From Escherichia phage Halfdan, in the sequence record NC_072811.1: 42,858 bases of DNA. One strand, 5' to 3'. A program made the position numbers and the translations under genes. The notes under the pieces are model-generated. The model did not search any database. It saw only the letters and a program-made list of their open reading frames with translations, and had not been told where the DNA came from. Each line of letters begins with the position of its first letter. Positions within the stretch are counted from its first letter, which is position 1. Shown in pieces: positions 3,624-36,121 of this stretch.

Positions 3624-4159
3624 TATGAACCCCAACGTACTTTTAATGTGGGCATCGAAGCGATGAACTTAAACCCTTTATCGTTCGGGTATTTCGCTTG
3701 CTGGTCTTCGTTAGTATACCGGGAATTAACCGAACGTGCCCAATTAATCAAGCGTGACGACGCGGAAGCCGCAACCGAAACAACTTGGCCTAAGTCAACG
3801 GTTAACGAATCAATTGTTCCGTTGAACCACGTAATCAAACCGGTTACAAGCTGGTTGTTTTTATCGACAAGCGCAATCGAAACCTTAATCGGTTTATTAC
3901 GCGTGTTTTCGTTAACAACGTCACCGGTCATAGTTGACGGAATATTAGTTAGGGTCAACTTTAACGCCGTAGCGGTTACACCGTTGGTCGTGGTGTAATC
4001 GCCGATTCGCCCAAGCGAACCGACGCCGTAATAAAGTTTTCCGCCGACAGTAATATTCCGGTCGGAAGTGTTCGCCAAGAACGGGCCACTTTCGAAACTG
4101 ATTTCTACAAAGTAAACCGGACGAACGACCTTTTCGTCGAACTGCGGGAAGTTACGCAT
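3623..4159 (-). CDS. tail protein, paralogue of the C-terminal domain of the 915-aa tail protein
   Basis: 178 aa; shares RPV(F/Y)FV and RYT(N/D)E.QQ...P.D(K/R)GFKFIA...K(V/L)(R/K)WG blocks with residues ~725-915 of ORF 4152..6899. Confidence 0.5.
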   Translation of the reverse strand: MRNFPQFDEKVVRPVYFVEISFESGPFLANTSDRNITVGGKLYYGVGSLGRIGDYTTTNGVTATALKLTLTNIPSTMTGDVVNENTRNKPIKVSIALVDKNNQLVTGLITWFNGTIDSLTVDLGQVVSVAASASSRLINWARSVNSRYTNEDQQAKYPNDKGFKFIASMPTLKVRWGS

Positions 4160-6899
4160 TTTGGTCGCCCCATTTTAGTTTGGTCGATTGCAAATCGGCG
4201 ATGAACTTAAATCCACGGTCGCCTGGGTGCAATAGTTGTTGGTATTCGTCGGTATAGCGGGCGGTTGAAGCCTTGTGCCAATCCGAAAGCGAAGACCGAA
4301 CGTTTAACTTAATCGTCGCGGTGTTACCGGTAAATTGAACGTTATTGTCGAGAATAGCGCCCGACCCGATAAGTCGCGGATTGCTGATTAGGATATTCGA
4401 AGGGTCAACCAAACCCAAGAACATTTTAACGCCCTTCGCCCGGATATGTTCGGTAACGTAATCGACCATATTAAGCGGAATGCCCGCAAGGCCCATTGAC
4501 CAACCAGCGTCGGAAGCGGCCAAGCCTTCCGTTACCGCTTCAATCTTGCCGAACTGGCCGGTCGCGAACCACGTTTTACCGTCATAGTCGATATTCTTGT
4601 CGGAACTGTTCATAAACGAATCGTCGCCAACTTGAACAAAGAACACCGGCCGAATAATACGGTCTTCAATTTCCGCGCCAAGTTGTCGGCGTGGCGGCAC
4701 GTATGGTTGAATCGCCGGGTCGGTTCCGTACAACGTATCGTCGTATGTAATACCGTCGCGGATAACTTGCGGGTATGCCCACACATAGATATTAGGGATT
4801 TCGTTCAAAATGGCTTCACGCGTCGCGATATTCACGTTAGGCCAAACCCAAGTTTCGCGGGCCGTGTTCACGAAGCCGACGAAGTAATGCACGACGGCCA
4901 ACGGATATTGCAAACGCACCGTCGCCGCTTCAAGGGTCAACGGCAACAAGTCAAGGTCGCCGTTAATAATCCAATCGTAATCCTCAATCTGTACGAAATC
5001 GTAATTCGGATAAATCCATTCCGATTCGGGGAAATTGATAATCGGCAACATTTCCGAAGCCGGGTTCATAATCTGCGGTGTAAAGAACAGCAGCGTACCC
5101 AACGAATCAGGATAAGCGGCCTTTACCGCATCCCGAATATAGTTGGTCGATTGGCCCAACTTCACGCCCAACCATTCCAAGTACGGGCGTTGGTCGTCGG
5201 TAATCGGCTGTTTATAGTTGGTGTAATACGGCGTCGGTACAGCGTGCCCGGTTTCGGTCGTATAAAGCCCCTTCGTGTATTCGTCGTAAATACACGGCGC
5301 ACCGTTCGTATAAGAACCGTCCCACCACCACGGTTCGCCAATCTGGAACATTAGCGTACTAATGCCGGATTCTTGAAGAAGTTTCATACCGTGTTTAATC
5401 GTCCGGGCTAGGTAATCCATCGCCGGAATAAACGTCGGAATCAGGAACGACGAAGGCGGCGACCAGCCCGAAAGCGCCGGGCTTCCGTAAGCGTCGCGTT
5501 GCTTCCATTCGTCCGGGCAATACGTGTTAAGGATTTCGTAAGACGTAGACCAAATAAACGTATAGCCGTAGGCTTGCATTTGGGTGAAGAAGTTACGGCA
5601 CCAAACTTCCGTAGGATAGTTCAGCGGTTCGGCCGCATCCTTTACCACTTGGTTAACGAATGTCGTACTTCCCCCGGTCGAATACGCCTTGAAATAGTGC
5701 GACATACCCATATACAGGTTGAAATGCCCCCGGTATCCAAGGTTGTACGTGTTATCAACTTGTCGCCACGGCGTAATATTGTATGTATCGTCGAAACCCG
5801 AAGTCATTTGCATATTATGCACGGCTTGCGGATAGAAACGACGACCGATAATGCGTCGCGCACCAGTTACCGAAATGTTCATCATTTCGAAGTTAAGCGA
5901 TTCGTTACCGATAGCCGTGTCGAGTTGAAGCGTAACGGCGTTCGCCGGGCCGCCGATAATCGCAACGTCTTTAAGCGGCCCGTTTTCGGCTTTTACATAT
6001 AGCGAAGTTCCCCGCATGTACCAGTTATTAACCTGAATCAAGAACGTTTGCAGGTTTTGAGTATAGATAGCGATAGGGTCGCCGCCGCCTTTACCGCCGT
6101 TCTTCTTACCGGTATTGACCGTTTTAACGTACTTGTCCGGTTGGACAATCGTAAATTGCAGAATGTCACCCTTCTTTAACCGCAAGTTAGGGTTAACGTT
6201 CATTACTTCCCAATAATCAAGCGTACCCGTACCCTTTACGCCGACGTATCGGGAACCGTAGTAACCAATTTCACCAATGCTTCGGATACGCGCATTCGGC
6301 CCAAGGCCATACGACCCCGGAGTAATGGCGAAGAAGAAGTTAATAATATAACGCGGGTCGATAACGTCGCCGTCGAAGTTGAACCCGGTTTTCATGTTGT
6401 CGAAATCAAGAATATAGATTTCGTAACCATCGGGAACGGTCGGCGTACCTTCGGGGAAGATATCAGAAATCGCGTAAATCAGGCCCGGCCCCGGCCCGGT
6501 AATTTCGATCGCACCGGGATTCGGAACCAGCGACTCGCCTTGTATCTTATACGGAAACATTCGGTAAACCTGATTACCGGAGTTCGACAGAACAGTTACC
6601 GTAAATTTGTACGGATAAAGCGGGTTCGCAACGAACCCAACTTTAACGCCGGAATAATCGCGGTCTTCGACGTACTGCAACAGGGGGTGCCCCATATCGT
6701 CGTGCGAAGTCCAAAGCAAGCCGACCAAATCGCGGTTAGAACGAAACTCACAATTTACGGTCAGCTTGTCGGGCGTATCGGCGATAATGGTTGCAATCGC
6801 CGACAACGGAAAGTCAAGGTGAAAATACCGGCCGTCGAAACGCGTAAGCGTCGAATTGGCGGCCGGTAGGGTTTCGCAGTATGCGCTATCGAATGCCAT
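4152..6899 (-). CDS. large tail protein (baseplate-hub-like, tail-tip complex)
   Basis: 915 aa; ATG 6897-6899 abuts stop of upstream gene; downstream of tape measure and distal tail genes; function inferred from synteny. Confidence 0.5.
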   Translation of the reverse strand: MAFDSAYCETLPAANSTLTRFDGRYFHLDFPLSAIATIIADTPDKLTVNCEFRSNRDLVGLLWTSHDDMGHPLLQYVEDRDYSGVKVGFVANPLYPYKFTVTVLSNSGNQVYRMFPYKIQGESLVPNPGAIEITGPGPGLIYAISDIFPEGTPTVPDGYEIYILDFDNMKTGFNFDGDVIDPRYIINFFFAITPGSYGLGPNARIRSIGEIGYYGSRYVGVKGTGTLDYWEVMNVNPNLRLKKGDILQFTIVQPDKYVKTVNTGKKNGGKGGGDPIAIYTQNLQTFLIQVNNWYMRGTSLYVKAENGPLKDVAIIGGPANAVTLQLDTAIGNESLNFEMMNISVTGARRIIGRRFYPQAVHNMQMTSGFDDTYNITPWRQVDNTYNLGYRGHFNLYMGMSHYFKAYSTGGSTTFVNQVVKDAAEPLNYPTEVWCRNFFTQMQAYGYTFIWSTSYEILNTYCPDEWKQRDAYGSPALSGWSPPSSFLIPTFIPAMDYLARTIKHGMKLLQESGISTLMFQIGEPWWWDGSYTNGAPCIYDEYTKGLYTTETGHAVPTPYYTNYKQPITDDQRPYLEWLGVKLGQSTNYIRDAVKAAYPDSLGTLLFFTPQIMNPASEMLPIINFPESEWIYPNYDFVQIEDYDWIINGDLDLLPLTLEAATVRLQYPLAVVHYFVGFVNTARETWVWPNVNIATREAILNEIPNIYVWAYPQVIRDGITYDDTLYGTDPAIQPYVPPRRQLGAEIEDRIIRPVFFVQVGDDSFMNSSDKNIDYDGKTWFATGQFGKIEAVTEGLAASDAGWSMGLAGIPLNMVDYVTEHIRAKGVKMFLGLVDPSNILISNPRLIGSGAILDNNVQFTGNTATIKLNVRSSLSDWHKASTARYTDEYQQLLHPGDRGFKFIADLQSTKLKWGDQNA

Positions 6900-7514
6900 T
6901 TAGCTTTGTCCGTACAATGCTTCGGTGAATTCAAGCGAAGCGGAATGCAACATTCCGTCGATACTCACTTCGCCGCCCCCGGTAAGTTGACACGATACAA
7001 CCGGCGCAATCGACGAAATCGCGGTTCCGTTTACTGGCGGGTTGCGCAATGGCGGAAGAATCGGAATGTTCGCGTTCCCGCTGGCATCCGACGAAACAGC
7101 CGCCGTAACAATATGCATTCGATACATGCCGTCGGAACACAAGTAAGAAATTTGGTCGCCGACTTCAAGAATCGCAATGCTTGGCGTCCAACCAGCGGAA
7201 GCCAGAACGGCCCCCGCTTGGTTTGCGCCGTTAACCGTCGGCGTGCCCGGTTCGGTACTGCGACGCGGGATATACGACAGGTCGTAAATGTGGGCAACTT
7301 CCGCCCCGCCCCGCAACATCGCTTTAATTGCTTTCAGTTGTCGGCCATACTTGGCGGATAGGCTGTCGTATCCGAACGTAAGTTTCCAGCGTGCGCCCGG
7401 AAGTTCGACAACCTGAATGCCGCCAGTGAAAGGCGACGCCGCGATGCCCACATTATTAAGAATGTCGGCTTTTGCCGTATCCGGCGCGAATAGCGTAGTC
7501 CGTAAATCAATCAT
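6900..7514 (-). CDS. putative distal tail protein
   Basis: 204 aa; ATG 7512-7514 directly follows tape measure stop; position typical of a Dit-like protein. Confidence 0.4.
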   Translation of the reverse strand: MIDLRTTLFAPDTAKADILNNVGIAASPFTGGIQVVELPGARWKLTFGYDSLSAKYGRQLKAIKAMLRGGAEVAHIYDLSYIPRRSTEPGTPTVNGANQAGAVLASAGWTPSIAILEVGDQISYLCSDGMYRMHIVTAAVSSDASGNANIPILPPLRNPPVNGTAISSIAPVVSCQLTGGGEVSIDGMLHSASLEFTEALYGQS

Positions 7515-10973: not shown

Positions 10974-11411
10974 TTATTTCAGTTTTAGTTTATACCGCTG
11001 AACAGCCTTGCGAACCTTGGCTAAACAGCGTTCTACAAATCCGGCCGATTGTTGGGCCGAATAACCGTCGTTCAATCGCTTGATATACGGTTGATTGTTC
11101 GTTATATAAATCTTTTGTCCGGGCTTCTTATTAGCCAATACGGCTTTTGCTTGCGCGATTGTTTCGGCGGCCGATGCGTTGCGCGTCGAACCCTTTTCGC
11201 CGGGATAATGCGCCTTGCCCACATTAGAAGACGGCGCGTCTAAGGTGACTTCCCAAGACGACAGTGCCTTCGACGTATCAACGGGCGTCGTATATGCCAG
11301 TTCAGCGACGGCGGTAACAGCAACAAAAACGGCCGCTTCGCTGGCGGCCGTCTCAATTTCGGCCTTTTTCTTTTCTAGCCGATTGGCTAAGTCTAAAAGA
11401 TTACCGGCCAT
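10974..11411 (-). CDS. hypothetical tail-associated protein
   Basis: 145-aa ORF, ATG 11409-11411, between chaperone and tape measure genes. Confidence 0.4.
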   Translation of the reverse strand: MAGNLLDLANRLEKKKAEIETAASEAAVFVAVTAVAELAYTTPVDTSKALSSWEVTLDAPSSNVGKAHYPGEKGSTRNASAAETIAQAKAVLANKKPGQKIYITNNQPYIKRLNDGYSAQQSAGFVERCLAKVRKAVQRYKLKLK

Positions 11412-12271: not shown

Positions 12272-13801
12272 TTACTGCGGCATTGCCTTGTTTGGCAAGT
12301 ATTCGAAGAATTCAACCAACAGCGTATGGCCGAATTTCGATTCTGCGCCGTTGGTATCCAACGGAACAGTAATCGGGTTGTCTTTTTCGACGTTGATACG
12401 ACCGCCGCCAAGCGACAACAGCGGGATATCGTAAATCATGCCGCGATTGTTTGCCGCAAGAATCGCGTAGATACCAACGTCGGCGTTATTGCGTACCGCT
12501 TGGGTTGCCGCAACAGTGGTAAAGTAAGCGGTAACAGACCCGCCGACTTCGAAGTCGCCCGCCGAAGTATCGAACGCACCCAATACCCCGACCGCTTTGT
12601 TCGGCGTGATATTGTTGTTCACTTCGATAGAACCTTCGGAAATGTAGCCGAACAGCGGGGTCGGATTCGGGTTCGCCGAATTGTTGACCGACATACGGAT
12701 ACGGTAAACGTCGGACGAAGTGTTATACGCCGATTGACCAAGCGCCGAAACACGCGTACCCGCCTTGACGCCAACCGCACCGGTACGCTGTTCGTTGTCG
12801 CACGCTACAAAGGTAACGTCGGCGTTCAGCTTGTCGGCTTGCGGAATGTTCAAGGTGAATTCGTTTGCAACGGCACCGACAAGGTATTCGGATTGCATAC
12901 CGTCGGCGTCTTGGCCTAGCGTGCGTTCCAGTTGGTACGAACGGCGCTTAATCAGGTTGGCCGACTTTTCGTTACGAATGACGGTGCCGAAGTATACTTG
13001 CAGCGTGATACCGGTTCCGGCTTCGGTTACAGGCGTCCAAGTGGCGTTGTCGAGCGTAACGGTTTTGCTGTCGGTCGAAATGGCCGCAACGCGGGCGTAA
13101 CCAACGTTGTTGGCAAACGAAGTGCCAGCGCCATCGCCGCCGATGAACACCCATTGACCCGGAATCAGGCCAAAGGCGAACGAACCGGCCGTCGCGGTCA
13201 GGGTCAGCAGACCGGCCGCATAGGTCAACGCAACGTCGCCCGATGCGAATTCGTGACCGACGCGGGTAAGTGCGCCGTTCGGTGCCGCGCCTTCGTCGGA
13301 CAACGCGCCCCATACGGTAACGGCGGTTGCGATTGCGTCGCTAACCTTTTTCATGCCGTTGTTTGTGGGCACCGCGAAACCGCTTGCGACAACCAAGTCG
13401 CCAGCCGCGAAGATACCCAATCCCGAAGCGGCGGTGTACTTGATTTCGTCGCCGTCTACGCCGGTCATCGAAACTTTAGCCGCATTCAACGGCGCGGTTT
13501 GCGGTTGCTGGCGGGCATCGGCAAAGCAAAAGCCTTGCATAAGCCGGGTAATGTTGTCGGCCGTTACGTCGGTGTTGAAACCGCCCGAAGCGTCCAAGTC
13601 GGTAACGGTGCCTTTCTTCCGCTGGCGCGAAGGGTCAATCGGGGCGCGTGCCACGGTCGTAACTTCGCCGCCGAAGTCCGAATAGCTGTTCGGTTCCAGC
13701 CCGTACCAAATGGGCGTAGCCGGAAGCTGTTTCAAGCATTCTTCTTCGGCGAACGAAAGGCCCGAAATATTGCTGTCGATTTTGTTAACGTCGCAGACCA
13801 T
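12272..13801 (-). CDS. major tail protein (tube; sheath not excluded)
   Basis: 509 aa; ATG 13799-13801 with AAGGA SD; lies between connector genes and chaperones. Confidence 0.45.
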   Translation of the reverse strand: MVCDVNKIDSNISGLSFAEEECLKQLPATPIWYGLEPNSYSDFGGEVTTVARAPIDPSRQRKKGTVTDLDASGGFNTDVTADNITRLMQGFCFADARQQPQTAPLNAAKVSMTGVDGDEIKYTAASGLGIFAAGDLVVASGFAVPTNNGMKKVSDAIATAVTVWGALSDEGAAPNGALTRVGHEFASGDVALTYAAGLLTLTATAGSFAFGLIPGQWVFIGGDGAGTSFANNVGYARVAAISTDSKTVTLDNATWTPVTEAGTGITLQVYFGTVIRNEKSANLIKRRSYQLERTLGQDADGMQSEYLVGAVANEFTLNIPQADKLNADVTFVACDNEQRTGAVGVKAGTRVSALGQSAYNTSSDVYRIRMSVNNSANPNPTPLFGYISEGSIEVNNNITPNKAVGVLGAFDTSAGDFEVGGSVTAYFTTVAATQAVRNNADVGIYAILAANNRGMIYDIPLLSLGGGRINVEKDNPITVPLDTNGAESKFGHTLLVEFFEYLPNKAMPQ

Positions 13802-15669: not shown

Positions 15670-15730
15670 CGCATAGATTCCTTGTCAATTGCCCGATGCC
15701 CACAATAAGCCGTCGGCATCGGGCACGGCC

Positions 15731-19096: not shown

Positions 19097-20644
19097 TTAA
19101 CCCCCGTTGCCCACATTAGACGGCTGCGGATTGCTGGCGGCCGGGTCTTCACCCATAGCCTTTGCAGTGGCCGCGATTTGGTCGGCTTGTTCTTGGTCGA
19201 TTTTCTTTTTCGCTTCGGCATCGTCTTCGGTAGCGACGCCACCTTTACGAAGTACGGCCCGCATTTCGGCGAAGGTAAGTGCGCCGCCTTGCCATTCCTT
19301 GATAGTTTCGGCGCGGTCTGCGGCCGAAAGTTTCATCAAGTCGAAGTCGGTGTTAAGTTGATATACGATTTTGGATTCGTCCAAACCCATATAGAACGCG
19401 CACCAGCCGAAGGCCCATTCGAACGCGGCCGATACGTTCTTCGCAGTTGCGGCCAAGAACGACGATTCGGCGGCTTCGTCTTGTTGCGCTTCGGTTGCGG
19501 TACGTTGTACCGACTTTTGTTCGACCAGCTTTGCGCCCAATGCGACCATTTGGTTTTCTTTGTGGCCCATTGCTTCGAACGGCATGGTATTCGGCTGCAT
19601 TTGCAGCAAGCCGCCTTGCGCATTCGGCGGAAGTGCGACGCCGCCCCACGAACCCAACTTGATTTGGCCGCCAAGAACGTTTTTCATCCATTCTTCGGTA
19701 AGACCGCTGAACCAGTAAGTCGGCTGGCCCATGACGTAACACGCTTCTTCGTAATCGGCCGAATTGCGGTAATGCGCTAAGTTCAGTTCGCAAAGGTCAA
19801 TGAACGGCGGGTTATCGACCGACGTATCGTTGTTTTCCGAACCGACGAACATAAACGGGATTTCTTGGATGTTCGAACCGTCCGGGCCGGTTGGATAAAA
19901 CGGGCCTTCTTTCAGTTCGAACGATTTGTTCTTCGGGATGTTATCGCCGTTCCAAACCGTCGGCGACTTTTCCCGGTAGATTTCGACTTTGTATTTCGTT
20001 TCGCCGACAACGTTACCGTTTTCGTCGGCTTCGTATTCCAGCGACATAACGCGGAATTGGCAACCGTGTTTGATTTCGAAGCCGTCGTCGTAGAACGGCC
20101 AAGATTCGGCGATTACGACCAGCGACAGCAGGGTTTTAGCGCCAACCTGAATTGTACGCCAGTTGACAACGGTATTCGGGTCGCAAACGGTAATCGTCGG
20201 GCGAAGGTGCCCGGCGTCTAGTTCTTTCTTGGTTGCGCCTTCTTCGCCGGTATTCGGATAATCGACGTAAATACCGCCACGCGCATAACCAAGTGCGTAA
20301 TTCAACAGGCGTTTAGCTTGTTGTGCGGCCGATACGCCGGTTCCGGTTGCGTCGATTTCGACGATATCCAGCGCGTCGGGAATTTCCGACACGGGGTCGC
20401 GGGCGAACACTTGGCCCGACAGACCGGCCAGCGTTCGGCGTGCGACGTTGTAGAACACGGCGCGGCCTTTATAGCCCTTGTAACGGGCGATGTTTTCCGG
20501 CGACTTATCGGCTTCGTTCGGCATCGGCAAATAGACAACACCGGCCGCCTTTACTTTGTCCGAACCGGACAAACAATCCCGAATCTTTTTGTACAGCGGC
20601 ATTACTGCGGCAAGTTCCGGGCGAATAAACGATACGTTTGGCAT
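19097..20644 (-). CDS. portal protein
   Basis: 515-aa ORF immediately downstream of large terminase. Confidence 0.65.
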   Translation of the reverse strand: MPNVSFIRPELAAVMPLYKKIRDCLSGSDKVKAAGVVYLPMPNEADKSPENIARYKGYKGRAVFYNVARRTLAGLSGQVFARDPVSEIPDALDIVEIDATGTGVSAAQQAKRLLNYALGYARGGIYVDYPNTGEEGATKKELDAGHLRPTITVCDPNTVVNWRTIQVGAKTLLSLVVIAESWPFYDDGFEIKHGCQFRVMSLEYEADENGNVVGETKYKVEIYREKSPTVWNGDNIPKNKSFELKEGPFYPTGPDGSNIQEIPFMFVGSENNDTSVDNPPFIDLCELNLAHYRNSADYEEACYVMGQPTYWFSGLTEEWMKNVLGGQIKLGSWGGVALPPNAQGGLLQMQPNTMPFEAMGHKENQMVALGAKLVEQKSVQRTATEAQQDEAAESSFLAATAKNVSAAFEWAFGWCAFYMGLDESKIVYQLNTDFDLMKLSAADRAETIKEWQGGALTFAEMRAVLRKGGVATEDDAEAKKKIDQEQADQIAATAKAMGEDPAASNPQPSNVGNGG

Positions 20645-20656: not shown

Positions 20657-22276
20657 TTATGATGGTCGAACAAGTTTAATTGCGGTTGCGGCCCGGTTGT
20701 TGCCAGCAAGGACGCGGTAACGTACTTCGTCGTAAACGTGGTCTTCGGAATCCGTATCCACGTCGTCGAGTATTTTAGAGTCGCGGGGCAATGTGGGCAA
20801 TATCGAAATAGCGGCCCGGCAACAGTCCATAATATACAACCCTTTGTGTTCACCGGTCGAAGTTGCTTCTAACCGTTCGCGCACAAGTTCAAGGCCGATT
20901 TTACGACTACCCGGCGATTTATCCGATTCAGTCCAGCGGATACCGACCGACGACATTTTCTTTTCGATGGTTTCCGTTTCATCGTCCGTAACGTTTCGAA
21001 TCTGGTTATCCGCTGGCCCCGGCCACGGTTGCGACTGAATCCAGCCGTTAGTCATTAATGCGATTTCAATATCGCGGATACCTTCCGCCACTTTACGCGA
21101 CGACATTTTAAGACCCTTGTTCGTTCCGATTTCCTTTGTACCGTACCATTCGAATATGCGAACAAGCGAACCAGCGGGCGGGCAAAACTTCTTCGTCGTT
21201 CCGTCGGGAAATACGATAGTCGCTTCTTCGCCGTTAGCTTCGGCCCACCAGCCAACCGAAAACGGATGCGACGAACCCCAGTCGAAAGACCGGTCGATTC
21301 GCCAACTTTTCGGAACAACGAACCGGGGAACGATAACGGTTTGTTTATTCCAAACGTCGTCGAGTGCGCCGCCTGCGACGATATCCCAATCGCCAAGCAA
21401 CCACGCTTTACGGCGGTTTTCGTCTTTTTCGCTATTCAGTTCGGCAACGTATTCGGGAGAAAGATAAATGTTTTCGACATACGAACCGAAGATAGCGACT
21501 TGCGTTTTCGTAACGGTAATTTCTTTCTTGGTCTTCGGGTCGAATACTTCGACGCTGTTTTCGACCATAGTTCCGTAAGGTGCCGGGTCGATAAACCGAC
21601 GCTTAACCCAATTATGGCCCGCGCCGTATGGGTTGCAAGTGCTGAACACTTCCAACGGAATCGGCGGGATTTCGTAAACCGGGCCTTCTTCAACGAAGAT
21701 AATTTCGCCTGTCGCTTCGTAATGGTCGCCGTCAATACACGGTGAATCTTTTTCAGGCGTAAACGAACTACGGTTCGTTGACATCATCATATTGTAAAGT
21801 TCGCCGGTTGGATATTTCGTTAATTCGTTCCAACCGATAAACGGGAATTCTTGGCCGTGATAGTTCCAATAATCGTCGGGATTCTTTGCGACGCGAAACA
21901 ACAGTTCTTCGCCGGTCGGCCAAACCCATTTAAGCGACGAAGCCGATTCAAGAAACTTTGCGCCGTCTTTGAATGCGTAAAACCAACGTTTCGACTTGTT
22001 GATTAAGTCGTCAAGGTTCTTATATTCGCGGTCGAATATGACGCCACGCCAGAACACGCCATAGCCCAAACCGACGCGACGACGAAATCGCATTAGCTGG
22101 GTATCGGTCTTTCCGGGGCCGCGTGCGCCAGTGTATAGGGTATGATGTGCCCGCGTATCTAACGCCAGTTCTTGCGACGTATCCGGTATCGGTTGCCAAA
22201 TTACGTTGGCGTTTTCCGGCGTCCAAATGATGCGTTCGGGCGAATCCGGGTTAGTGTTTGGTAGTATTAGCGACAT
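20657..22276 (-). CDS. terL: terminase large subunit
   Basis: 539 aa; Walker-A-like GARGPGKT near N-terminus; C-terminal nuclease-sized domain. Confidence 0.85.
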   Translation of the reverse strand: MSLILPNTNPDSPERIIWTPENANVIWQPIPDTSQELALDTRAHHTLYTGARGPGKTDTQLMRFRRRVGLGYGVFWRGVIFDREYKNLDDLINKSKRWFYAFKDGAKFLESASSLKWVWPTGEELLFRVAKNPDDYWNYHGQEFPFIGWNELTKYPTGELYNMMMSTNRSSFTPEKDSPCIDGDHYEATGEIIFVEEGPVYEIPPIPLEVFSTCNPYGAGHNWVKRRFIDPAPYGTMVENSVEVFDPKTKKEITVTKTQVAIFGSYVENIYLSPEYVAELNSEKDENRRKAWLLGDWDIVAGGALDDVWNKQTVIVPRFVVPKSWRIDRSFDWGSSHPFSVGWWAEANGEEATIVFPDGTTKKFCPPAGSLVRIFEWYGTKEIGTNKGLKMSSRKVAEGIRDIEIALMTNGWIQSQPWPGPADNQIRNVTDDETETIEKKMSSVGIRWTESDKSPGSRKIGLELVRERLEATSTGEHKGLYIMDCCRAAISILPTLPRDSKILDDVDTDSEDHVYDEVRYRVLAGNNRAATAIKLVRPS

Positions 22277-23019: not shown

Positions 23020-23227
23020 CGTTAGCCCCTTTAACTGATTCAGTTACTTGTTCGACCGTCGCTTTCGCTTCGGCTACCGCTTCGGCGGCTTTGTCTTCGG
23101 CGTGTTTCGTTTCCGCTTCCGACTTACCGGCTTTCTTACCGCCAAAGTACAGACCAAGCGCACCAGCAATCGCGCCAATGATGCCCACAATCCAAGGCCC
23201 GAAGTCGCCTAACAGTGCTGTAATCAT
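22943..23227 (-). CDS. i-spanin
   Basis: 94 aa; N-terminal TM helix then charged helical region; directly downstream of endolysin. Confidence 0.55.
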   Translation of the reverse strand: MITALLGDFGPWIVGIIGAIAGALGLYFGGKKAGKSEAETKHAEDKAAEAVAEAKATVEQVTESVKGANDVQADINRLNPGDAANKLRDEWSRD

Positions 23228-25357: not shown

Positions 25358-25555
25358 CTATTTTCCGTTGTATTCGCCATTTTTGCAGTATTCGGCGTAA
25401 GTACCGTTGTAATCCGGCCACAACCCCGAATGCACGTTAGCGCAATATGCTTCGGCTTCCCGCTTGGCTTCTTCGTAATCGCTGTTACCGGCGACGCCTG
25501 CGAGTATAACCAAGGCGGCAATTCCGATGCAATAGGCTAAATGTTTCTGGGTCAT
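25358..25555 (-). CDS. small membrane or secreted protein
   Basis: 65 aa from ATG 25553-25555 (AAAGGAG SD 8 nt upstream); N-terminal hydrophobic segment; track ORF begins 3 codons earlier at GTG. Confidence 0.45.
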   Translation of the reverse strand: MTQKHLAYCIGIAALVILAGVAGNSDYEEAKREAEAYCANVHSGLWPDYNGTYAEYCKNGEYNGK

Positions 25556-25568
25556 TGTGGGCACTCCT

Positions 25569-25949
25569 TTATTTAAGGCCGGTTCGAAGTATCGTCGTTG
25601 CGACGTTGTTAAGTCCGTCCGTCGCGCACTGTTGCGCCAGCATGGCCGCGTTTTGCATTGATACCAGCGTCTTACGCAAATCCGATTCTTCCGGCTGGCC
25701 TAGCGCGTCCAACATATCCAACAGCTTTTGTAACCAAACCGTTTGGTCGTTCAACGCGCCGAACATGACACGCGAAGCGGCCAACAGGTTGTAGTAACCC
25801 GGTGCGACCGCGCATTCGGCGATTACCGGGTTAGGACTTGCGACCCCGTTTTCGATTGCCATTACGAACGCTTGCCCGGTTGGGCTTGCTTCGCTGGCAA
25901 TCATTACGAAATCTGTTGCGAGTATTTCAGCTTTCGTTTTCATTGTCAA
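25569..25949 (-). CDS. hypothetical protein
   Basis: 126-aa ORF. Confidence 0.4.
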   Translation of the reverse strand: MTMKTKAEILATDFVMIASEASPTGQAFVMAIENGVASPNPVIAECAVAPGYYNLLAASRVMFGALNDQTVWLQKLLDMLDALGQPEESDLRKTLVSMQNAAMLAQQCATDGLNNVATTILRTGLK

Positions 25950-26139: not shown

Positions 26140-26597
26140 TCTTCGCCCCTTGTTACGATAAGTTTAACGCCCGCTTCTTTGAACATCGAAACGGCAATAT
26201 CTAAGTGTTCGTCGTATGCAAGCCGGTTGCCCACATATTCAGCGACGACGCGTTTAACGCCGCTTTGAATGATGGCCCCGGCGCAAACCGGGCACGGCGT
26301 CAACGGCGTTACGAACAGCGTACAACCGACAAGCGATTCGCGGCTGTTTAGTATAGCGTTCAATTCGGCGTGTACGGTGCGCGGGTACTTCTGCGCCCGG
26401 TCGTTCAACCGGGATTCAGTATCGGCCACGCCACGCGGAAAGCCGTTGTAACCGAACGATACCGGGCTGTTATCCGGCCGTGCAATGAACGCACCAACCT
26501 TCGTCGAAGGGTCTTTCGATTTGGTGCGAACAGTGCGGGCCAACGACAGGTAGAACCGTTCCCATTCGGTAAGGTCTTCGTACCGACGTTCAATCAT
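26136..26597 (-). CDS. dCMP deaminase (cytidine/deoxycytidylate deaminase family)
   Basis: 153 aa; zinc-binding HAE and PCxxC motifs (VHAELNAI, TPCPVCAGAI). Confidence 0.8.
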   Translation of the reverse strand: MIERRYEDLTEWERFYLSLARTVRTKSKDPSTKVGAFIARPDNSPVSFGYNGFPRGVADTESRLNDRAQKYPRTVHAELNAILNSRESLVGCTLFVTPLTPCPVCAGAIIQSGVKRVVAEYVGNRLAYDEHLDIAVSMFKEAGVKLIVTRGEE

Positions 26598-30019: not shown

Positions 30020-30040
30020 AGCGGCCCCCTTATGCCCACA

Positions 30041-30241: not shown

Positions 30242-30362
30242 TTCGATAACTCCTTCGCTGTATCCGGTGACTGTTGCGACAGTATCGCCGCATTCCGTCG
30301 GACTGTCAACCGGATTTTTCATCGGATAGCAAACCGGTTCGTCGTTTGCCCCTTGGCCCCAG

Positions 30363-30603
30363 CCTTATACGAATTTAAGGGTTCCGATTAGCCCTAAGTC
30401 CTTGTATTTATTGAAGATATAAAAAGTATAAAGAGTATAAGGATAGTACCTATTTTAGTGAATGTACGGAATCCGATAACCAATCCGACGGTTTGGGGGA
30501 TAGAAGGGGAAGTGAAGGTTTATCGCCTTATAACCCTTATACCCTTATAACATCAATGAAATCAGGGGGTTAGGGCTTATACGCGGCCTTAGCCCCCTTA
30601 TAC
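30363..30603. repeat. iteron cluster with AT-rich core (candidate replication origin)
   Basis: at least 7 copies of CC(C)TTATA(A/C) in both orientations, three in tandem at 30526-30550; AT-rich stretch 30400-30470; noncoding gap between primase stop (30624) and next gene. Confidence 0.5.
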
Positions 30604-30623
30604 TGATTCGTCGGATAGGTTAG

Positions 30624-32930
30624 CTAGAAGCCGAACGCCCGTGGTGCCGAAATCATGTACGCAACGCCACGGAATCCGAACTTATCAATCAATTGACCTT
30701 TACCCAATTCCGCAATGTCGCCACGGTCGCAAAGCGTCTTCAAGGTGCGTCGGATAACGTCGGATGCCGTGATTCGTTCGCCTTTGAAAGCGGATAGGTT
30801 AGCCAATTTACGTTGAAGGTACGGATACGGAATAATGCGTTCGCCGTGCATCATTGCCGACCCGCCATACGACGCCACTTCCGACCAAGGCCGAACGACG
30901 TATTCGCGAATAACGCGTACCATTTCGTTAAGCTGTTTGGTTTCGTTGCTGTTCTGGCCGACTTCGCCGCTATTGAACCGACCTAACAGGTTGTTCGAAT
31001 CCGCTTCAACGATACGCAAGGCCCAAGCGGCGGCGCTGGCATCAATGGTCGGGTTATAGGGGTCACAACCGACGGCAACCAGCCCGGCTAGTTTCATGGC
31101 CTTAATGTGGGCACGGTTCCAAAGGTGGCGCGTGACTTCGCGGGATGCGTTGTTAATTCGCTTGTCGCATTCTTCGTTGAAAGCGTCGAACAGTTCTTTC
31201 GCTTCCGGCGATACGCGGATATGCACCGCTTTATGCGAGTTGTTCAGCATCAACGCTTGCGCGCACAATTGCGCCATACGTTCGACCAGTTCATTCGACG
31301 GCATTACGAACGCGTGGCCTTCGTTCATAGACGGCCGCTTTCCTCGGTATTCGATGATGGTAAAGCGCGGCAACAAACCTTCGCTAATCATCATTTCATC
31401 AAGGAATTCGTAAAAGCGTTCGGGCGTTGATTCGCCTAGCATCGTGTAAGACGGTGCCAGAACCGAAGCCGTATTCTTTTCTTTATCCGAATAGATGGTC
31501 GGACGCAAAACCGAACCTTCGCCGGACTTGTTGAACAGGTCAAGCAACAGGCGGCGCAAGCCGACAAGGTGCGTCGGTGCGCGGGGGTCGGTCATTTGCT
31601 GCAATGCGATACCGATTTCGCCGACGATGCTTACAAAGCTGGTCGGGCCTTTCGACATATATTTAACCAACGCTTGCGCCGATGCGATTTCAGCCGGGCC
31701 GATGAATTCGTTAGCCGCTGGCACGGTGCGTTGCACTTGGCCCATTAGCTTTTCAATGCCCTTTGCGATTGCTTCTTTACCGGTGCCGGTTGGGGCCAAC
31801 AACATAACGTATTGGTTCAATCCGGTATTCGACACGTTGTACGCACGCCCACATATACCAGCCATCAAGCCAATAGCGGCCGTAAGCGCGATTTCCGGTA
31901 CAGGCCGGGGCGCTTGCTGGTAAATGAATTGCGCGATTTCGCCCATAAGGCCGGGCGGCACGGTGTACGGCGTATCGCCTTGGGGTTCGGGGATATATTC
32001 GGCTGTCGGCACGCTGGCGGCTTCCTGTTGCACGGCGACGCGGCTTTGTTGCAATGCTTCGTTAAGCCGGTTCATAAGTGCGGCGGTATCGACTGGCGGC
32101 AACATGCGGTCGAAAGACTTGTTAATCATGTAGTCGATATAACCGACGCCACGAATCGACGTTTGTTTGTCGCGTGCGCCCAACGGCGACGCTTTGAACA
32201 TCCGGGTAAGCTGTTCGCGGTTTTGGGTATAAAACGCCAAAATGTTGATATACGCTAAGTCGGCTTCGGATTGCGACGGATACAGGCCGACCCAATCGCC
32301 GTTATGCAACGACATAAACTTCGCGCCGTTTTCCGCATTGCGTGCGATTTCGATAACTTCGTCGTCCGACTTGGTTTGCGGTTCGTTGCCGTCGTAATAT
32401 GTCTTTTCTTCTTTACCGCCCAACAGGGTATAAAGTTCGTTGACCATATCGTTACGGTCTTCGATAGCAGGGTTCGAACCGTTAAGGAAATTGCCCGTCA
32501 TGGTCATAAAGCGACCGGACGAATACAGTTCGATACGGTTACGCTTGCGACCGGCTGGCAACGCACCTTTTACGATGATATGCACGCCCTTACCGCTTGG
32601 CGAAAGTTCGGTATACGACCCTAGCCGTTGGTAAATCGTGATTTGGTCGGCGTACAATTTCGGGTCGCCGTCCGTATCGTCAAGGTCGATAAAGCAATAC
32701 GGGTCGTTTTGCGTTAACACGAAGCCCAAGCCGTTAAACCATCCGTCTTGGCACGCTTGCGCGGCTTGCTCAAACGTTCCGAATGTTGACGGTTCGTTGA
32801 CATTCGCCCGCGTTTGGAAATTATGCGGCGAATACGGTACTTTGGTCGGCTTATCGGCTTGCGTGTCTTCGTAACGCCAAACTACCCAATGCGGCGTATT
32901 CCGCAATTCTTCGGGTATGTTCTGGTACAT
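30624..32930 (-). CDS. DNA primase (prim-pol-type N-terminal domain) with C-terminal NTPase-like region
   Basis: 768 aa; PHWVVWRYE, FIDLDD, SPSGKGVHI, ELYSSGRFMTMTG motifs; P-loop-like APTGTGKE. Confidence 0.7.
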   Translation of the reverse strand: MYQNIPEELRNTPHWVVWRYEDTQADKPTKVPYSPHNFQTRANVNEPSTFGTFEQAAQACQDGWFNGLGFVLTQNDPYCFIDLDDTDGDPKLYADQITIYQRLGSYTELSPSGKGVHIIVKGALPAGRKRNRIELYSSGRFMTMTGNFLNGSNPAIEDRNDMVNELYTLLGGKEEKTYYDGNEPQTKSDDEVIEIARNAENGAKFMSLHNGDWVGLYPSQSEADLAYINILAFYTQNREQLTRMFKASPLGARDKQTSIRGVGYIDYMINKSFDRMLPPVDTAALMNRLNEALQQSRVAVQQEAASVPTAEYIPEPQGDTPYTVPPGLMGEIAQFIYQQAPRPVPEIALTAAIGLMAGICGRAYNVSNTGLNQYVMLLAPTGTGKEAIAKGIEKLMGQVQRTVPAANEFIGPAEIASAQALVKYMSKGPTSFVSIVGEIGIALQQMTDPRAPTHLVGLRRLLLDLFNKSGEGSVLRPTIYSDKEKNTASVLAPSYTMLGESTPERFYEFLDEMMISEGLLPRFTIIEYRGKRPSMNEGHAFVMPSNELVERMAQLCAQALMLNNSHKAVHIRVSPEAKELFDAFNEECDKRINNASREVTRHLWNRAHIKAMKLAGLVAVGCDPYNPTIDASAAAWALRIVEADSNNLLGRFNSGEVGQNSNETKQLNEMVRVIREYVVRPWSEVASYGGSAMMHGERIIPYPYLQRKLANLSAFKGERITASDVIRRTLKTLCDRGDIAELGKGQLIDKFGFRGVAYMISAPRAFGF

Positions 32931-33133
32931 TACTTAACCTTTGCTTTCAGATATGCGTAAAGGGTTTCGACGAAGACGACGCCGGGGTTATCCGACTGGC
33001 CTACCGCGAACGCACGAATCCAAGCGACCGACAGGCCGGTTTCGTCAGCAATGGTCTTGTATTCAAGGTTACGGGGGCGATTCAACAGAAGTTGCCGGGT
33101 TTCATCCCGCCAACCGGTGACAAGCTGGGTCAT
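32930..33133 (-). CDS. small helix-turn-helix DNA-binding protein
   Basis: 67 aa from ATG 33131-33133 (TAAGGA 9 nt upstream) or 70 aa from ATG 33140-33142; YKTIADETGLSVAWIRAF HTH-like segment; first gene of the leftward unit. Confidence 0.5.
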   Translation of the reverse strand: MTQLVTGWRDETRQLLLNRPRNLEYKTIADETGLSVAWIRAFAVGQSDNPGVVFVETLYAYLKAKVK

Positions 33134-33173
33134 TGTGGGCATTCCTTACGGTTGCGCGTGGTCATTGGCCGAA

Positions 33174-33202
33174 ATGATACGGCGAAAATCATGTAACGTA
33201 AA
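33174..33202 (-). promoter_or_regulatory. candidate leftward promoter for the HTH-primase unit
   Basis: minus-strand TTTACG, 17-nt spacer, TATCAT; back to back with the rightward promoter. Confidence 0.35.
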
Positions 33203-33214
33203 GCGAAAATTCTA

Positions 33215-33243
33215 TTGACGCCCGCAAGCCCCGGCGCTACTAT
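33215..33243 (+). promoter_or_regulatory. sigma70-like promoter for the rightward early unit
   Basis: TTGACG (33215-33220), 17-nt spacer, TACTAT (33238-33243); GGAG SD before mazG-like ATG at 33294. Confidence 0.5.
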
Positions 33244-33293
33244 ATGGGCACGGTTGGGAACCCCCGGCCGCAACCCTAACCGGAGTCGTCCCA

Positions 33294-33917: not shown

Positions 33918-33942
33918 CGCGCCGGTTCGATTGACGTATATT
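33914..33942 (+). promoter_or_regulatory. sigma70-like promoter upstream of gene 33995..34462
   Basis: TTGACG (33914-33919), 17-nt spacer, TATATT (33937-33942); overlaps the mazG-like stop codon; followed by leader hairpin 33953-33971. Confidence 0.5.
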
Positions 33943-33994
33943 TCTATTCAACGGGCCGAATTGGTCGGCCCGGTTTAACGAAAGGGTAATCGAA

Positions 33995-34462: not shown

Positions 34463-34514
34463 TCAACGACGCCCGGTTGCCCACATTAGGCCGCCGGGCT
34501 TTTCAGGTGAAACT

Positions 34515-35195: not shown

Positions 35196-35251
35196 ATAAC
35201 CGAATTCGACACGGTTTGATTGTCGGAACTTTTCGAAAAGGTAGAAACAAA

Positions 35252-36061: not shown

Positions 36062-36076
36062 GTCGCAATCAACGGT

Positions 36077-36104: not shown

Positions 36105-36121
36105 CAGGGGAATAATGCCGT

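What the first reader, a model, noticed from the sequence alone, without database searches (positions are those of the whole stretch)
25547..25570. Two unrelated genes share a near-identical 24-nt translation-initiation block containing the motif
The coding-strand sequence AAAGGAGTGCCCACAATGACCCAG (gene 25358..25555) and TAAGGAATGCCCACAATGACCCAG (HTH gene, plus coordinates 33125-33148) match at 22 of 24 positions. In each the TGCCCACA element sits in the spacer between the SD and the ATG, and both proteins then begin MTQ. A shared regulatory element at the ribosome-binding site, for example a translational operator or co-regulation by a site-specific binder, is a reasonable reading; the proteins are otherwise unrelated.
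Basis: seen in the sequence. Interest (0 to 1): 0.5.

Follow-up and report, generated by a model that had tools for sequence, protein, structure and literature searches.

The report
Evenly spaced phage octamer, probably priming sites
The two look-alike ribosome-binding blocks are two of twenty copies of an 8-base word (TGCCCACA) spread at very even intervals along both strands of this phage genome and its relatives. The word is most likely the recognition site of the phage's own primase, not a translation switch shared by two genes.

Summary
AAAGGAGTGCCCACAATGACCCAG (25570..25547, minus strand) and TAAGGAATGCCCACAATGACCCAG (33148..33125, minus strand) match at 22 of 24 positions.

The block is a composite of three ordinary parts:
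- a Shine-Dalgarno sequence;
- one copy of TGCCCACA;
- ATG followed by ACC (7 of 58 genes here start ATGAC).

The window is Escherichia phage Halfdan (Lokivirus). TGCCCACA occurs 20 times (0.2-0.75 expected):
- 12 copies on the plus strand and 8 on the minus strand;
- 15 copies inside genes, in all frames;
- 10 sense and 10 antisense to transcription;
- very even spacing within each strand (plus-strand coefficient of variation 0.17 against about 0.9 for random placement).

The same word is the top over-represented word in relatives infecting Pseudomonas, Acinetobacter and Burkholderia. More distant phages with a full-length homologous primase-helicase carry variants: TAACCACA, TGACCACA, ACCCACAA and ACCACAGG. 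CCACA is invariant.

The complement, 5'-TGTGG-3', contains GTGG, the published template recognition site of the NrS-1 primase-polymerase. The Halfdan primase is homologous to that enzyme (E about 1e-27, with the helix-bundle domain present).

Best reading (about 0.5): these are dispersed priming sites for the phage primase. The translational-operator reading is not supported as the element's function. I found no published description.

The parts
25547..25570 (-). First block: Shine-Dalgarno AAAGGAG, then TGCCCACA (25563..25556), then ATGACCCAG. This is the start of the 65-aa small membrane-protein gene.
   Evidence: The stop codon of the upstream gene (25571..25569) overlaps the Shine-Dalgarno sequence, and the intergenic gap is only 13 nt.
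33125..33148 (-). Second block: Shine-Dalgarno TAAGGAA, then TGCCCACA (33141..33134), then ATGACCCAG. This is the start of the 67-aa HTH-like gene at the head of the HTH-primase operon.
25358..25555 (-). Small membrane-protein gene: an N-terminal transmembrane helix plus a conserved YCxNVxxGxWPDY segment.
   Evidence: Orthologues in Pavpe01, KL1 gp54 and Kopi gp33 are 38-46% identical, and each has the motif in its Shine-Dalgarno-ATG spacer.
32930..33133 (-). Small HTH-like gene directly upstream of the primase gene.
   Evidence: (weak Cro/XRE-like Pfam hit to CYNS_N, E 9e-5, below the curated cut-off).
30624..32930 (-). Primase-helicase, 768 aa: an archaeo-eukaryotic-type (AEP) primase-polymerase domain, an NrS-1-like helix-bundle domain, and a DUF3987 helicase-like domain. 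This is the proposed reader of the motif.
   Evidence: Pfam NrS1-1_pol-like_HBD E 4e-7 and DUF3987 E 1e-13; residues 10-274 match NrS-1 primase-polymerase structures 6A9W/6K9A/7RR3 at E about 2e-27. The catalytic motifs FIDLDD and SPSGKGVH are kept, and a Tyr aligns with NrS-1 Y261.
1327..1334 (+). TGCCCACA copy, inside the tail fibre gene, antisense.
   Evidence: Conserved in place in Pavpe01.
3647..3654 (-). TGCCCACA copy, near the 3' end of a tail protein gene, sense.
4776..4783 (+). TGCCCACA copy, inside the 915-aa gene, antisense.
   Evidence: Conserved in Pavpe01.
7289..7296 (-). TGCCCACA copy, in the distal tail protein gene, sense.
   Evidence: Conserved in Pavpe01 and Loki.
7445..7452 (+). 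TGCCCACA copy, in the distal tail protein gene, antisense.
11216..11223 (+). TGCCCACA copy, in the tail completion gene, antisense.
   Evidence: Conserved in Pavpe01.
13364..13371 (-). TGCCCACA copy, in the major tail gene, sense.
   Evidence: Conserved in Pavpe01.
15697..15704 (+). TGCCCACA copy, intergenic, partly inside a GC-rich hairpin.
19108..19115 (+). TGCCCACA copy, 11 nt from the 3' end of the portal gene, antisense.
   Evidence: Conserved in Pavpe01.
20792..20799 (-). TGCCCACA copy, in the terminase large subunit gene, sense.
   Evidence: Conserved in Pavpe01, Loki and KL1.
23182..23189 (+). TGCCCACA copy, in the spanin gene, antisense.
   Evidence: Conserved in Pavpe01.
26228..26235 (+). 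TGCCCACA copy, in the dCMP deaminase gene, antisense.
30033..30040 (+). TGCCCACA copy, intergenic, between a stop codon and the next Shine-Dalgarno sequence, antisense, within a hairpin.
31106..31113 (-). TGCCCACA copy, inside the primase gene, sense.
   Evidence: Conserved in Pavpe01.
34478..34485 (+). TGCCCACA copy, intergenic upstream of the Sak4 gene, in the loop region of a terminator-like hairpin.
   Evidence: The site is conserved in Pavpe01, KL1 and Kopi, with different stem sequences.
38368..38375 (+). TGCCCACA copy, in the helicase gene, sense.
40952..40959 (+). TGCCCACA copy, in the DNA polymerase gene, sense.
42133..42140 (-). TGCCCACA copy, in the DNA polymerase gene, antisense.
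30322..30623 (.). Candidate replication origin: a 300-bp non-coding gap downstream of the primase gene with clustered TATAAGG repeats and an AT-rich stretch. Context only; it does not contain the motif.
   Evidence: Six of the genome's eight TATAAGG copies lie here.

Best explanation
TGCCCACA, with extended consensus W-TGCCCAC-A-W-T-A-R, is a genome-wide signal read one strand at a time. It is most likely the preferred template recognition site of the phage's own NrS-1-like primase-helicase.

Proposed mechanism:
- On the complementary strand the site reads 5'-...Y-T-A-W-T-GTGG-GCA-3'.
- By analogy with NrS-1 and pRN1 primases, the helix-bundle domain would bind GTGG plus the three lineage-specific bases on its 3' side.
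- The primer would start opposite the invariant T just 5' of GTGG. The primer would therefore read 5'-A-W-T-A-R.
- Copies are kept on both strands at even intervals of about 3.6 kb and about 5.4 kb, so that any stretch exposed as single-stranded template has a priming site nearby.

The two ribosome-binding-site blocks are two of these copies. They sit in the only free 8 nt of two very short intergenic gaps, the Shine-Dalgarno-ATG spacers.

Shown here: the motif statistics, its conservation, the even spacing, the lineage variants and the primase homology.
For: 1. Over-representation. There are 20 copies against 0.2-0.75 expected. It is the top word in Halfdan, Shy, Pavpe01, Loki, KL1 and Kopi, whose hosts span four genera and whose GC content is 44-55%. 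It is also enriched in most of 17 IMG/VR viral-database contigs with GC 39-57%. The signal therefore belongs to the phage, not the host.

2. Selection acts on the DNA. Copies lie inside genes in all frames, 10 sense and 10 antisense. Twelve of 20 sites keep a perfect 8-mer in place in Pavpe01, within DNA that is about 75% identical.

3. Even spacing within each strand.
- Halfdan plus strand: 12 sites, coefficient of variation 0.17, gaps 2.6-4.5 kb, P<0.001.
- Halfdan minus strand: coefficient of variation 0.38, P=0.007.
- Same-strand copies are never closer than 2.0 kb, while opposite-strand copies can be 156 bp apart.
- The same holds in Pavpe01, Loki, KL1, Kopi, slur01, JenK1 and PaMx25.

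4. Phages with full-length homologues of the primase (21-33% identical) have their own top word:
- slur01: TAACCACA, 22 copies;
- PaMx25, JenK1 and vB_VhaS-tm: TGACCACA, 21-23 copies;
- birk: ACCCACAA, 20 copies;
- RHph_Y55: CCACAGG, 13 copies.
CCACA, which is 5'-TGTGG-3' on the other strand, is invariant. The bases on its 5' side vary by lineage.

5. Match to published biochemistry.
- Halfdan primase residues 10-274 align to NrS-1 primase-polymerase structures at E about 2e-27, and the helix-bundle domain is detected by Pfam.
- NrS-1 recognises template 5'-GTGG-3', 5'-GTGA-3' and 5'-TTTGGTTA-3', and starts the primer at the first base 5' of the site. pRN1 ORF904 recognises 5'-GTG-3' through its helix-bundle domain (PMC8718748).
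- The complement of the slur01 word, TGTGGTTA, differs from TTTGGTTA at one base.
- The semi-conserved 3' flank A-W-T-A is exactly the predicted primer.

6. It is the only primase annotated in the genome, and it sits alongside a separate DNA polymerase and clamp.

7. About 60% of copies have the orientation expected for lagging-strand priming by forks moving in the same direction as late transcription. This holds in all five complete genomes: 12:8, 11:7, 13:9, 17:10 and 17:10.

8. Controls. Lactobacillus phage A2 and Klebsiella phage KpV79 show no word above -log10P of about 6-8, so the statistic does not fire in every genome.
Against: - No experiment links the primase to the motif.
- The whole replication module (polymerase, clamp, DEAD-box helicase, Cas4-type exonuclease, SSB, Sak4) travels with the primase in every motif-bearing phage examined. 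The distribution across phages therefore cannot single out the primase.
- Phages with AEP primases that share only the N-terminal primase region with Halfdan's enzyme (A2, KpV79, and NrS-1 itself) have no dispersed motif. NrS-1 has clustered origin repeats instead.
- Known primase sites are 3-5 nt long. An 8-12 nt requirement would be unusual.
- There is no switch of motif orientation around the candidate origin, so a simple two-directional replication model is not reflected in the pattern.
- The conserved copy just upstream of the HTH-primase operon in all six genomes hints at an additional, possibly regulatory, role.
- Single-strand hairpin presentation of the motif is not a general feature.
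Confidence: 0.5

Rival explanations
1. One reading: the block is a translational operator, or a shared ribosome-binding-site element, that co-regulates the small membrane-protein gene and the HTH gene.
For: The motif lies in the Shine-Dalgarno-ATG spacer, in the sense orientation, at both genes. At the membrane-protein gene this arrangement is kept across four genera. A copy near the HTH-primase start is kept in six genomes.
Against: - 18 of 20 copies are not at ribosome-binding sites, and half are antisense to the mRNA.
- At the HTH gene the distance to the ATG varies from 0 to 28 nt, and Loki has the inverted orientation.
- The bases beyond the motif are not conserved between close relatives.
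- Even spacing within each strand across the genome is left unexplained.
- No RNA structure is associated with the block.
Confidence: 0.05
2. The sites bind a phage double-stranded-DNA-binding protein, for example the small HTH protein encoded next to the primase, which organises or regulates the genome.
For: A small HTH-like ORF precedes the primase in most lineages. A motif copy lies just upstream of that operon in six genomes, and in KL1 and Kopi it directly abuts a TTGACA-N17-TAnnnT promoter.
Against: - The site is a single asymmetric 8-mer without dyad symmetry.
- The regular spacing is per strand, not over the combined set: same-strand copies are at least 2 kb apart, while opposite-strand copies come as close as 156 bp. 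That argues for a strand-specific or directional reader.
- JenK1's small ORF upstream of the primase is not homologous to the HTH, yet JenK1 keeps TGACCACA.
- The match to GTGG and TTTGGTTA would be coincidental.
Confidence: 0.12
3. The sites are recognised by a nicking enzyme, giving localized single-strand interruptions in virion DNA as in phages T5, phiKMV and tf.
For: The statistical signature is similar: in phage tf a 9-nt consensus occurs 14 times, with positions shared among relatives (PMC3517423). A VRR-NUC nuclease is encoded in Halfdan.
Against: - In T5-, phiKMV- and tf-like phages all sites are on one strand. Here they are on both strands.
- Some opposite-strand pairs are 22 bp (Loki) or 156 bp apart. 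Nicks there would weaken the duplex.
- The nuclease type is not conserved across motif-bearing lineages: VRR-NUC, Vsr-like, RusA and HNH are all seen.
- No nicks are reported for these genera in the library searched.
Confidence: 0.1
4. The motif is a Chi-like, orientation-dependent signal for the phage's own helicase-nuclease (DEAD-box helicase plus Cas4-type exonuclease). It would limit degradation and promote recombination from the random ends of a circularly permuted genome.
For: Per-strand coverage at even intervals fits a signal that must be met soon after entry from any end. The helicase, exonuclease, Sak4 and SSB genes co-occur with the motif.
Against: - No phage-encoded Chi system of this kind is known (my knowledge).
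- NrS-1 and A2 carry helicase, RecB-like exonuclease and SSB, or Sak4, helicase and SSB, without any dispersed motif.
- This reading does not explain the GTGG core or the near-identity to the NrS-1 primase site.
Confidence: 0.1
5. The word is host-derived: a DNA uptake sequence, the host's Chi site, or a restriction-modification footprint.
For: The density and two-strand distribution resemble those of DNA uptake sequences (my knowledge).
Against: The same word is the top word in phages of Escherichia, Pseudomonas, Acinetobacter and Burkholderia and in metagenomic contigs with GC 39-57%. The variants follow phage lineage, not host: E. coli phages Halfdan, slur01 and JenK1 carry three different variants.
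Confidence: 0.01

Closest known systems
Template recognition sites of AEP primase-polymerases with a helix-bundle domain (phage NrS-1 polymerase: 5'-GTGG-3', 5'-GTGA-3', 5'-TTTGGTTA-3'; plasmid pRN1 ORF904: 5'-GTG-3')
   Same: The Halfdan primase is homologous to NrS-1 across the primase-polymerase and helix-bundle domains. All motif variants contain 5'-TGTGG-3' on one strand. The Seuratvirus variant TGTGGTTA is 7 of 8 identical to the NrS-1 site. The semi-conserved flank corresponds to the predicted primer, which would start with A.
   Different: The known sites were defined in vitro and are short, or occur once at an origin: in NrS-1 the 8-mer lies in an origin repeat cluster. Here an 8-12 nt site is dispersed about 20 times on both strands, evenly spaced, and conserved in place. 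Recognition by the Halfdan enzyme is untested.
Phage T7 gene 4 primase recognition sites (5'-GTC-3' core, pentamer preferences)
   Same: These are sequence-specific lagging-strand priming sites on single-stranded template, with bases 3' of the primer start that are recognised but not copied (my knowledge; PMC2910064 was listed but not read).
   Different: T7 uses a zinc-finger/TOPRIM primase. Its sites are 3-5 nt long, abundant by chance, and as far as I know not maintained as an evenly spaced, over-represented word.
Localized nick consensus sites of phages T5, phiKMV and tf
   Same: A conserved 7-9+ nt word occurs about 10-20 times per genome, with positions shared among related phages.
   Different: Those sites are confined to one strand and are physically nicked. 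Here the copies are on both strands, and nicking is unknown.
Chi sites and DNA uptake sequences
   Same: These are asymmetric 8-12 nt words, strongly over-represented, inside genes, and selected at the DNA level (my knowledge).
   Different: Those words are properties of the host genome and are read by host machinery. This word is specific to a phage lineage across hosts, and it is evenly spaced.

Membership tests
Recognition site of an NrS-1/pRN1-type AEP primase | The genome encodes an AEP primase with a helix-bundle domain | tested here: met
   Pfam NrS1-1_pol-like_HBD, E 4e-7, above the curated cut-off. Match to NrS-1 structures 6A9W/7RR3 at E about 2e-27; the catalytic motifs and the Tyr aligned to NrS-1 Y261 are conserved.
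Recognition site of an NrS-1/pRN1-type AEP primase | The site contains the GTG or GTGG core on the template strand | tested here: met
   The complement of TGCCCACA is TGTGGGCA. All five lineage variants keep TGTGG. Published specificity is taken from PMC8718748.
Recognition site of an NrS-1/pRN1-type AEP primase | The primase binds the site and starts primers next to it | not testable with these tools
   This needs an in vitro priming assay or mapping of nascent-strand 5' ends.
Recognition site of an NrS-1/pRN1-type AEP primase | The motif tracks the primase specifically, rather than other replication genes | tested here: inconclusive
   The motif is found in every full-length primase homologue examined, but the whole replication module is inherited together. 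A three-genome comparison was uninformative. Phages whose primases share only the N-terminal AEP region (A2, KpV79, NrS-1) lack a dispersed motif.
Translational operator or shared ribosome-binding-site element | The element is confined to the ribosome-binding sites of the regulated genes, on the mRNA strand | tested here: not met
   Only 2 of 20 copies are at ribosome-binding sites, and 10 of 20 are antisense.
Translational operator or shared ribosome-binding-site element | Position relative to the start codon is fixed in orthologues | tested here: inconclusive
   Met at the membrane-protein gene, with 0-2 nt to the ATG in four genera. Not met at the HTH gene, where the distance is 0-28 nt and the orientation is flipped in Loki.
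Localized nick sites (T5, phiKMV, tf type) | All consensus sites lie on one strand | tested here: not met
   12 on the plus strand and 8 on the minus strand in Halfdan, and a similar split in relatives. The one-strand rule is taken from PMC3517423.
Localized nick sites (T5, phiKMV, tf type) | A physical single-strand break is present in virion DNA | not testable with these tools
   This needs virion DNA.
Host Chi site, DNA uptake sequence or restriction-modification word | The word is specific to the host taxon | tested here: not met
   The same word occurs in phages of four host genera, and three different variants occur among E. coli phages.
Origin iterons (as in NrS-1 or P4) | Copies are clustered in a short non-coding region near the replication initiator gene | tested here: not met
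   TGCCCACA is dispersed: the largest gap is 3.9 kb and there is no cluster. A different repeat, TATAAGG, clusters at 30363-30602.
Promoter | Copies are oriented with the downstream genes and lie in intergenic DNA | tested here: not met
   Fifteen of 20 copies are inside genes, and orientation is 10 sense to 10 antisense.

The most novel reading that the evidence does not exclude
A large group of tailed phages carries a replication 'punctuation' code. The group includes Lokivirus, Septimatrevirus, Kilunavirus, the Queuovirinae subfamily, Rosemountvirus and Kleczkowskavirus. All share an NrS-1-like primase-helicase working with a separate polymerase and clamp.

The code would be an 8-12 nt primase recognition word of the form NNN-CCACA plus the primer-start flank. 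Selection would keep it at even intervals of 2-5 kb on each strand, and its three variable bases would co-evolve with the primase. Okazaki-fragment starts would then be hard-wired in the genome sequence rather than stochastic.
Probability: 0.45. Interest if true: 0.8.

Novelty: new variant of a known kind. Interest (0 to 1): 0.68.

Why it matters
If the primase reading is right, these phages fix where lagging-strand primers start by means of a long, evenly spaced sequence word.

- This would be the first case I know of where primase specificity visibly shapes a whole genome: about 100-fold over-representation, conservation in place inside genes, and regular spacing.
- It offers a purely computational way to read out primase specificity and its evolution across hundreds of phages.
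- It identifies synonymous positions that must not be changed when recoding or engineering these phages. The Halfdan-type phage Shy was isolated on E. coli K-12, and the Queuovirinae appear in E. coli phage collections such as BASEL.
- It makes the role of the helix-bundle domain in template choice directly testable with natural variants: GCA, TTA, TCA and GTT on the 3' side of TGTGG.

For the finding as submitted, the practical lesson is different. The look-alike ribosome-binding sites are a by-product of this genome-wide element, not a dedicated two-gene regulatory switch.

Tried and rejected
- **Hairpin presentation.** A few intergenic copies (34478, 30033, 15697) sit in terminator-like hairpins, and the stem at the 34478 site differs among four phages. 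However, folding all 20 sites with DNA energy parameters showed no difference from 400 random positions: mean energy -7.0 against -7.1, and motif enclosed and unpaired in 15% against 13%. I dropped this as a general feature.
- **Replication-direction switch.** I looked for a change of motif orientation around the candidate origin (about 30.4-33.3 kb) and found none (positions).
- **Three-genome test of motif against primase.** Primase identities are slur01-PaMx25 43%, slur01-JenK1 33% and JenK1-PaMx25 30%. The motif grouping (JenK1 with PaMx25) does not follow them, and the other proteins were no more informative. Inconclusive.
- **The NrS-1 genome itself.** There is no dispersed word. Instead AAAGTGTAAC(C) occurs 11 times, clustered just after the primase gene, and this cluster contains the only TTTGGTTA.
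- **Literature searches.** I searched for the octamers, for Lokivirus and Halfdan, for nicks in these genera, and for over-represented primase sites. None described the motif. The hits for the octamers were PCR primers or eukaryotic Runx sites.
- **Promoter reading.** Rejected on orientation and on location inside genes.
- **Host-derived word.** Rejected by the cross-host comparison.
Full report
**Observation**

On the minus strand, 25570..25547 reads AAAGGAGTGCCCACAATGACCCAG and 33148..33125 reads TAAGGAATGCCCACAATGACCCAG. These match at 22 of 24 positions. A 23-mer search allowing 3 mismatches finds only these two sites, with 0 expected. In both, TGCCCACA fills the space between the Shine-Dalgarno sequence and the ATG.

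**Identity of the window**

The window is Escherichia phage Halfdan (MH362766; 42,858 bp; 53.7% GC), genus Lokivirus.
- It is 99% identical to phage Shy and to Halfdan_Juelich_variant (PMC7552041).
- I transferred the Shy annotation to window coordinates.
- Late and early-lysis genes occupy the minus strand from 71 to 33273. A replication module lies on the plus strand from 33294 to 42835: MazG, Sak4, SSB, Cas4-type exonuclease, DEAD-box helicase, clamp and DNA polymerase.
- The first block starts a 65-aa membrane protein gene (25358-25555).
- The second block starts a 67-aa HTH-like gene (32930-33133), followed directly by a 768-aa primase-helicase gene (30624-32930).

**The motif is genome-wide**

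- TGCCCACA occurs 20 times. Shuffles expect 0.75. A 3rd-order Markov model expects 0.2, giving -log10P of about 32, the top 8-mer in the genome.
- Twelve copies are on the plus strand and 8 on the minus strand.
- The extended consensus is W-TGCCCACA-W-T-A-R, often TGCCCACATTAG.
- Fifteen copies lie inside coding sequence in all three frames. Ten are sense and ten antisense to transcription.
- Five are intergenic, although only about 3% of the genome is non-coding.
- Selection therefore acts on the DNA, not on a protein or an mRNA.

**What this means for the 24-nt block**

The block is Shine-Dalgarno plus motif plus ATG-ACC.
- Among the 190 pairs of copies, this pair has the most similar flanks (13 of 16). 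Other pairs reach 12 and 11.
- Seven of 58 genes start ATGAC(N).
- The last codon differs in close relatives: CGG in Shy and the Juelich variant, CGT in Pavpe01.
- At the first site the intergenic gap is only 13 nt and the Shine-Dalgarno sequence overlaps the upstream stop codon. The spacer is the only free place for an 8-mer.

**Conservation**

- The same word is the top over-represented word in Pavpe01 (Pseudomonas syringae; 18 copies), Loki (Acinetobacter; 44% GC; CCCACATT 20 copies), KL1 (Burkholderia; GCCCACA 27 copies) and Kopi (P. aeruginosa; GCCCACA 27 copies).
- It is enriched in most of 17 IMG/VR viral-database contigs whose primases are 47-57% identical and whose GC content is 39-57%.
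- Twelve of the 20 Halfdan sites keep a perfect 8-mer at the homologous position in Pavpe01, within DNA that is about 75% identical. The terminase and Sak4-upstream sites persist out to Loki, KL1 and Kopi.
- The first block's arrangement (Shine-Dalgarno, motif, ATG) is kept at the orthologous membrane-protein gene in Pavpe01, KL1 and Kopi.
- A copy lies 0-28 nt upstream of the HTH-primase operon start in all six genomes. Its distance varies, and it is inverted in Loki.

**Spacing**

- Within each strand the copies are very evenly spaced.
- Halfdan plus strand: 12 sites, gaps of 2.6-4.5 kb, coefficient of variation 0.17 against about 0.9 for random placement (P<0.001).
- Halfdan minus strand: 8 sites, coefficient of variation 0.38 (P=0.007).
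- Same-strand copies are never closer than 2.0 kb. Opposite-strand copies can be 156 bp apart.
- Pavpe01, Loki, KL1 and Kopi behave the same way, as do slur01, JenK1 and PaMx25.
- Two independent per-strand series point to a strand-specific or directional reader with a need for coverage.
- In all five complete genomes about 60% of copies, read as TGCCCACA, lie antisense to the structural genes.

**Link to the primase**

- The 768-aa protein has a Pfam NrS-1-type helix-bundle domain (E 4e-7) and a DUF3987 helicase-like domain.
- Residues 10-274 match the NrS-1 primase-polymerase structures at E about 2e-27. The catalytic motifs are conserved, and so is the Tyr aligned to NrS-1 Y261.
- According to PMC8718748, NrS-1 recognises template 5'-GTGG-3' and 5'-GTGA-3', and the 8-mer 5'-TTTGGTTA-3'. 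It starts the primer at the first base 5' of the site. Mutating Y261 in the helix-bundle domain disables priming. pRN1 ORF904 recognises 5'-GTG-3' through the same domain.
- The complement of the Halfdan word is 5'-TGTGGGCA-3'.
- Phages with full-length homologues of the primase (21-33% identical) each have their own top word:

| Phage (group) | Top word | Copies |
|---|---|---|
| slur01 (Seuratvirus) | TAACCACA | 22 in 30 kb |
| PaMx25 (Nipunavirus) | TGACCACA | 21 |
| JenK1 (Nonagvirus) | TGACCACA | 23 |
| Vibrio phage vB_VhaS-tm | TGACCACA | 21 |
| birk (Rosemountvirus, a myovirus) | ACCCACAA | 20 |
| RHph_Y55 (Kleczkowskavirus) | CCACAGG | 13 |

.
- CCACA, which is TGTGG on the other strand, is invariant. 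The bases on its 5' side vary by lineage.
- The slur01 complement TGTGGTTA differs from the NrS-1 site TTTGGTTA at one base.
- Under the NrS-1 rule the primer would begin opposite the invariant T and would read A-W-T-A-R. That is exactly the semi-conserved 3' flank of the motif.

**Controls and caveats**

- Lactobacillus phage A2 and Klebsiella phage KpV79 have AEP primases related only in the N-terminal part. Neither shows an outlying word.
- NrS-1 has AAAGTGTAAC(C) 11 times, clustered after its primase gene, with the single TTTGGTTA inside that cluster.
- A dispersed word is therefore specific to the clade with full-length primase homologues working beside a separate polymerase and clamp.
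- That whole replication module is inherited together. The distribution across phages cannot separate the primase from, for example, the helicase-exonuclease pair. A three-genome comparison was uninformative.
- Hairpin presentation of the motif is not general.
- There is no orientation switch around the candidate origin.

**Rivals**

- A two-gene translational operator does not fit the distribution, orientation or spacing of the copies.
- A double-stranded-DNA binder such as the HTH protein does not fit the per-strand regularity. It also does not fit JenK1, which keeps the motif although its small ORF upstream of the primase is not homologous to the HTH.
- Nick sites of the T5, phiKMV or tf type are confined to one strand (PMC3517423).
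- A phage-encoded Chi-like system is unprecedented. It also leaves the GTGG match unexplained.
- A host-derived word is excluded by the cross-host data.

**Verdict**

- The interpretation as a shared translation-initiation operator is not supported as the function of the element.
- The two blocks are two copies of a conserved, evenly spaced, strand-wise octamer. It most likely marks priming sites for the phage's NrS-1-like primase (confidence about 0.5).
- I found no description of this motif in the held literature.

Noticed in passing
window 30322-30623: This is a 300-bp non-coding gap just downstream of the primase gene. It holds 6 of the genome's 8 TATAAGG copies, in both orientations, plus an AT-rich stretch. 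It is a likely replication origin with its own repeats, distinct from TGCCCACA.
   Followed up: partly
L029 (Nitratiruptor phage NrS-1) 17062-17371: AAAGTGTAAC(C) occurs 11 times, clustered directly after the NrS-1 primase gene. The published 8-nt primase recognition site TTTGGTTA occurs once in the genome, inside this cluster, at 17198 on the minus strand.
   Followed up: partly
L030 (Vibrio phage vB_VhaS-tm) whole 30.6-kb stretch: A second strongly over-represented word, GCCAGGC/GCCTGGC, occurs 38 times against 2.4 expected, in addition to TGACCACA. It contains CCWGG. Its meaning is unknown.
   Followed up: no
L004 (Acinetobacter phage Loki) 9530-9559: Two motif copies in inverted orientation, 22 bp apart, form the hairpin that the Loki record annotates as a rho-independent terminator at 9527-9563.
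   Followed up: no
L002 (Pseudomonas phage Pavpe01): A tandem array based on CCAGAA (AACCAGAACCAG, 11 or more copies) dominates the 9-12-mer counts. I did not locate or interpret it.
   Followed up: no
window 1-8000 and 34000-42858 versus 8000-34000: AT skew changes sign near 8 kb and near 34 kb, although genes stay on the minus strand from 1 to 33 kb. This could reflect replication or mosaic origin of the tail-fibre region.
   Followed up: no
window 25358-25555 (minus strand) and orthologues L002:6486-6683, L005:41826-42032, L006:31161-31370: A conserved family of small membrane proteins, with a transmembrane helix plus YCxNVxxGxWPDY, of unknown function. It lies two genes downstream of the dCMP deaminase gene in four genera.
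   Followed up: partly
window 33134-33294: This is a divergent control region between the HTH-primase operon and the MazG operon. The MazG gene also begins ATGACCCA (33294). A TTTACG-N17-TATCAT promoter-like element lies about 50 nt upstream of the HTH start. The 47-aa 'hyp34' ORF annotated in Shy spans this promoter region and may be spurious.
   Followed up: no
L003 (PP954860.1 Halfdan_Juelich_variant): This record is a near-identical Halfdan variant, but its host is given as Pseudomonas taiwanensis, while Halfdan and Shy were isolated on E. coli K-12. Either the host range is unusually broad or the annotation is odd.
   Followed up: no
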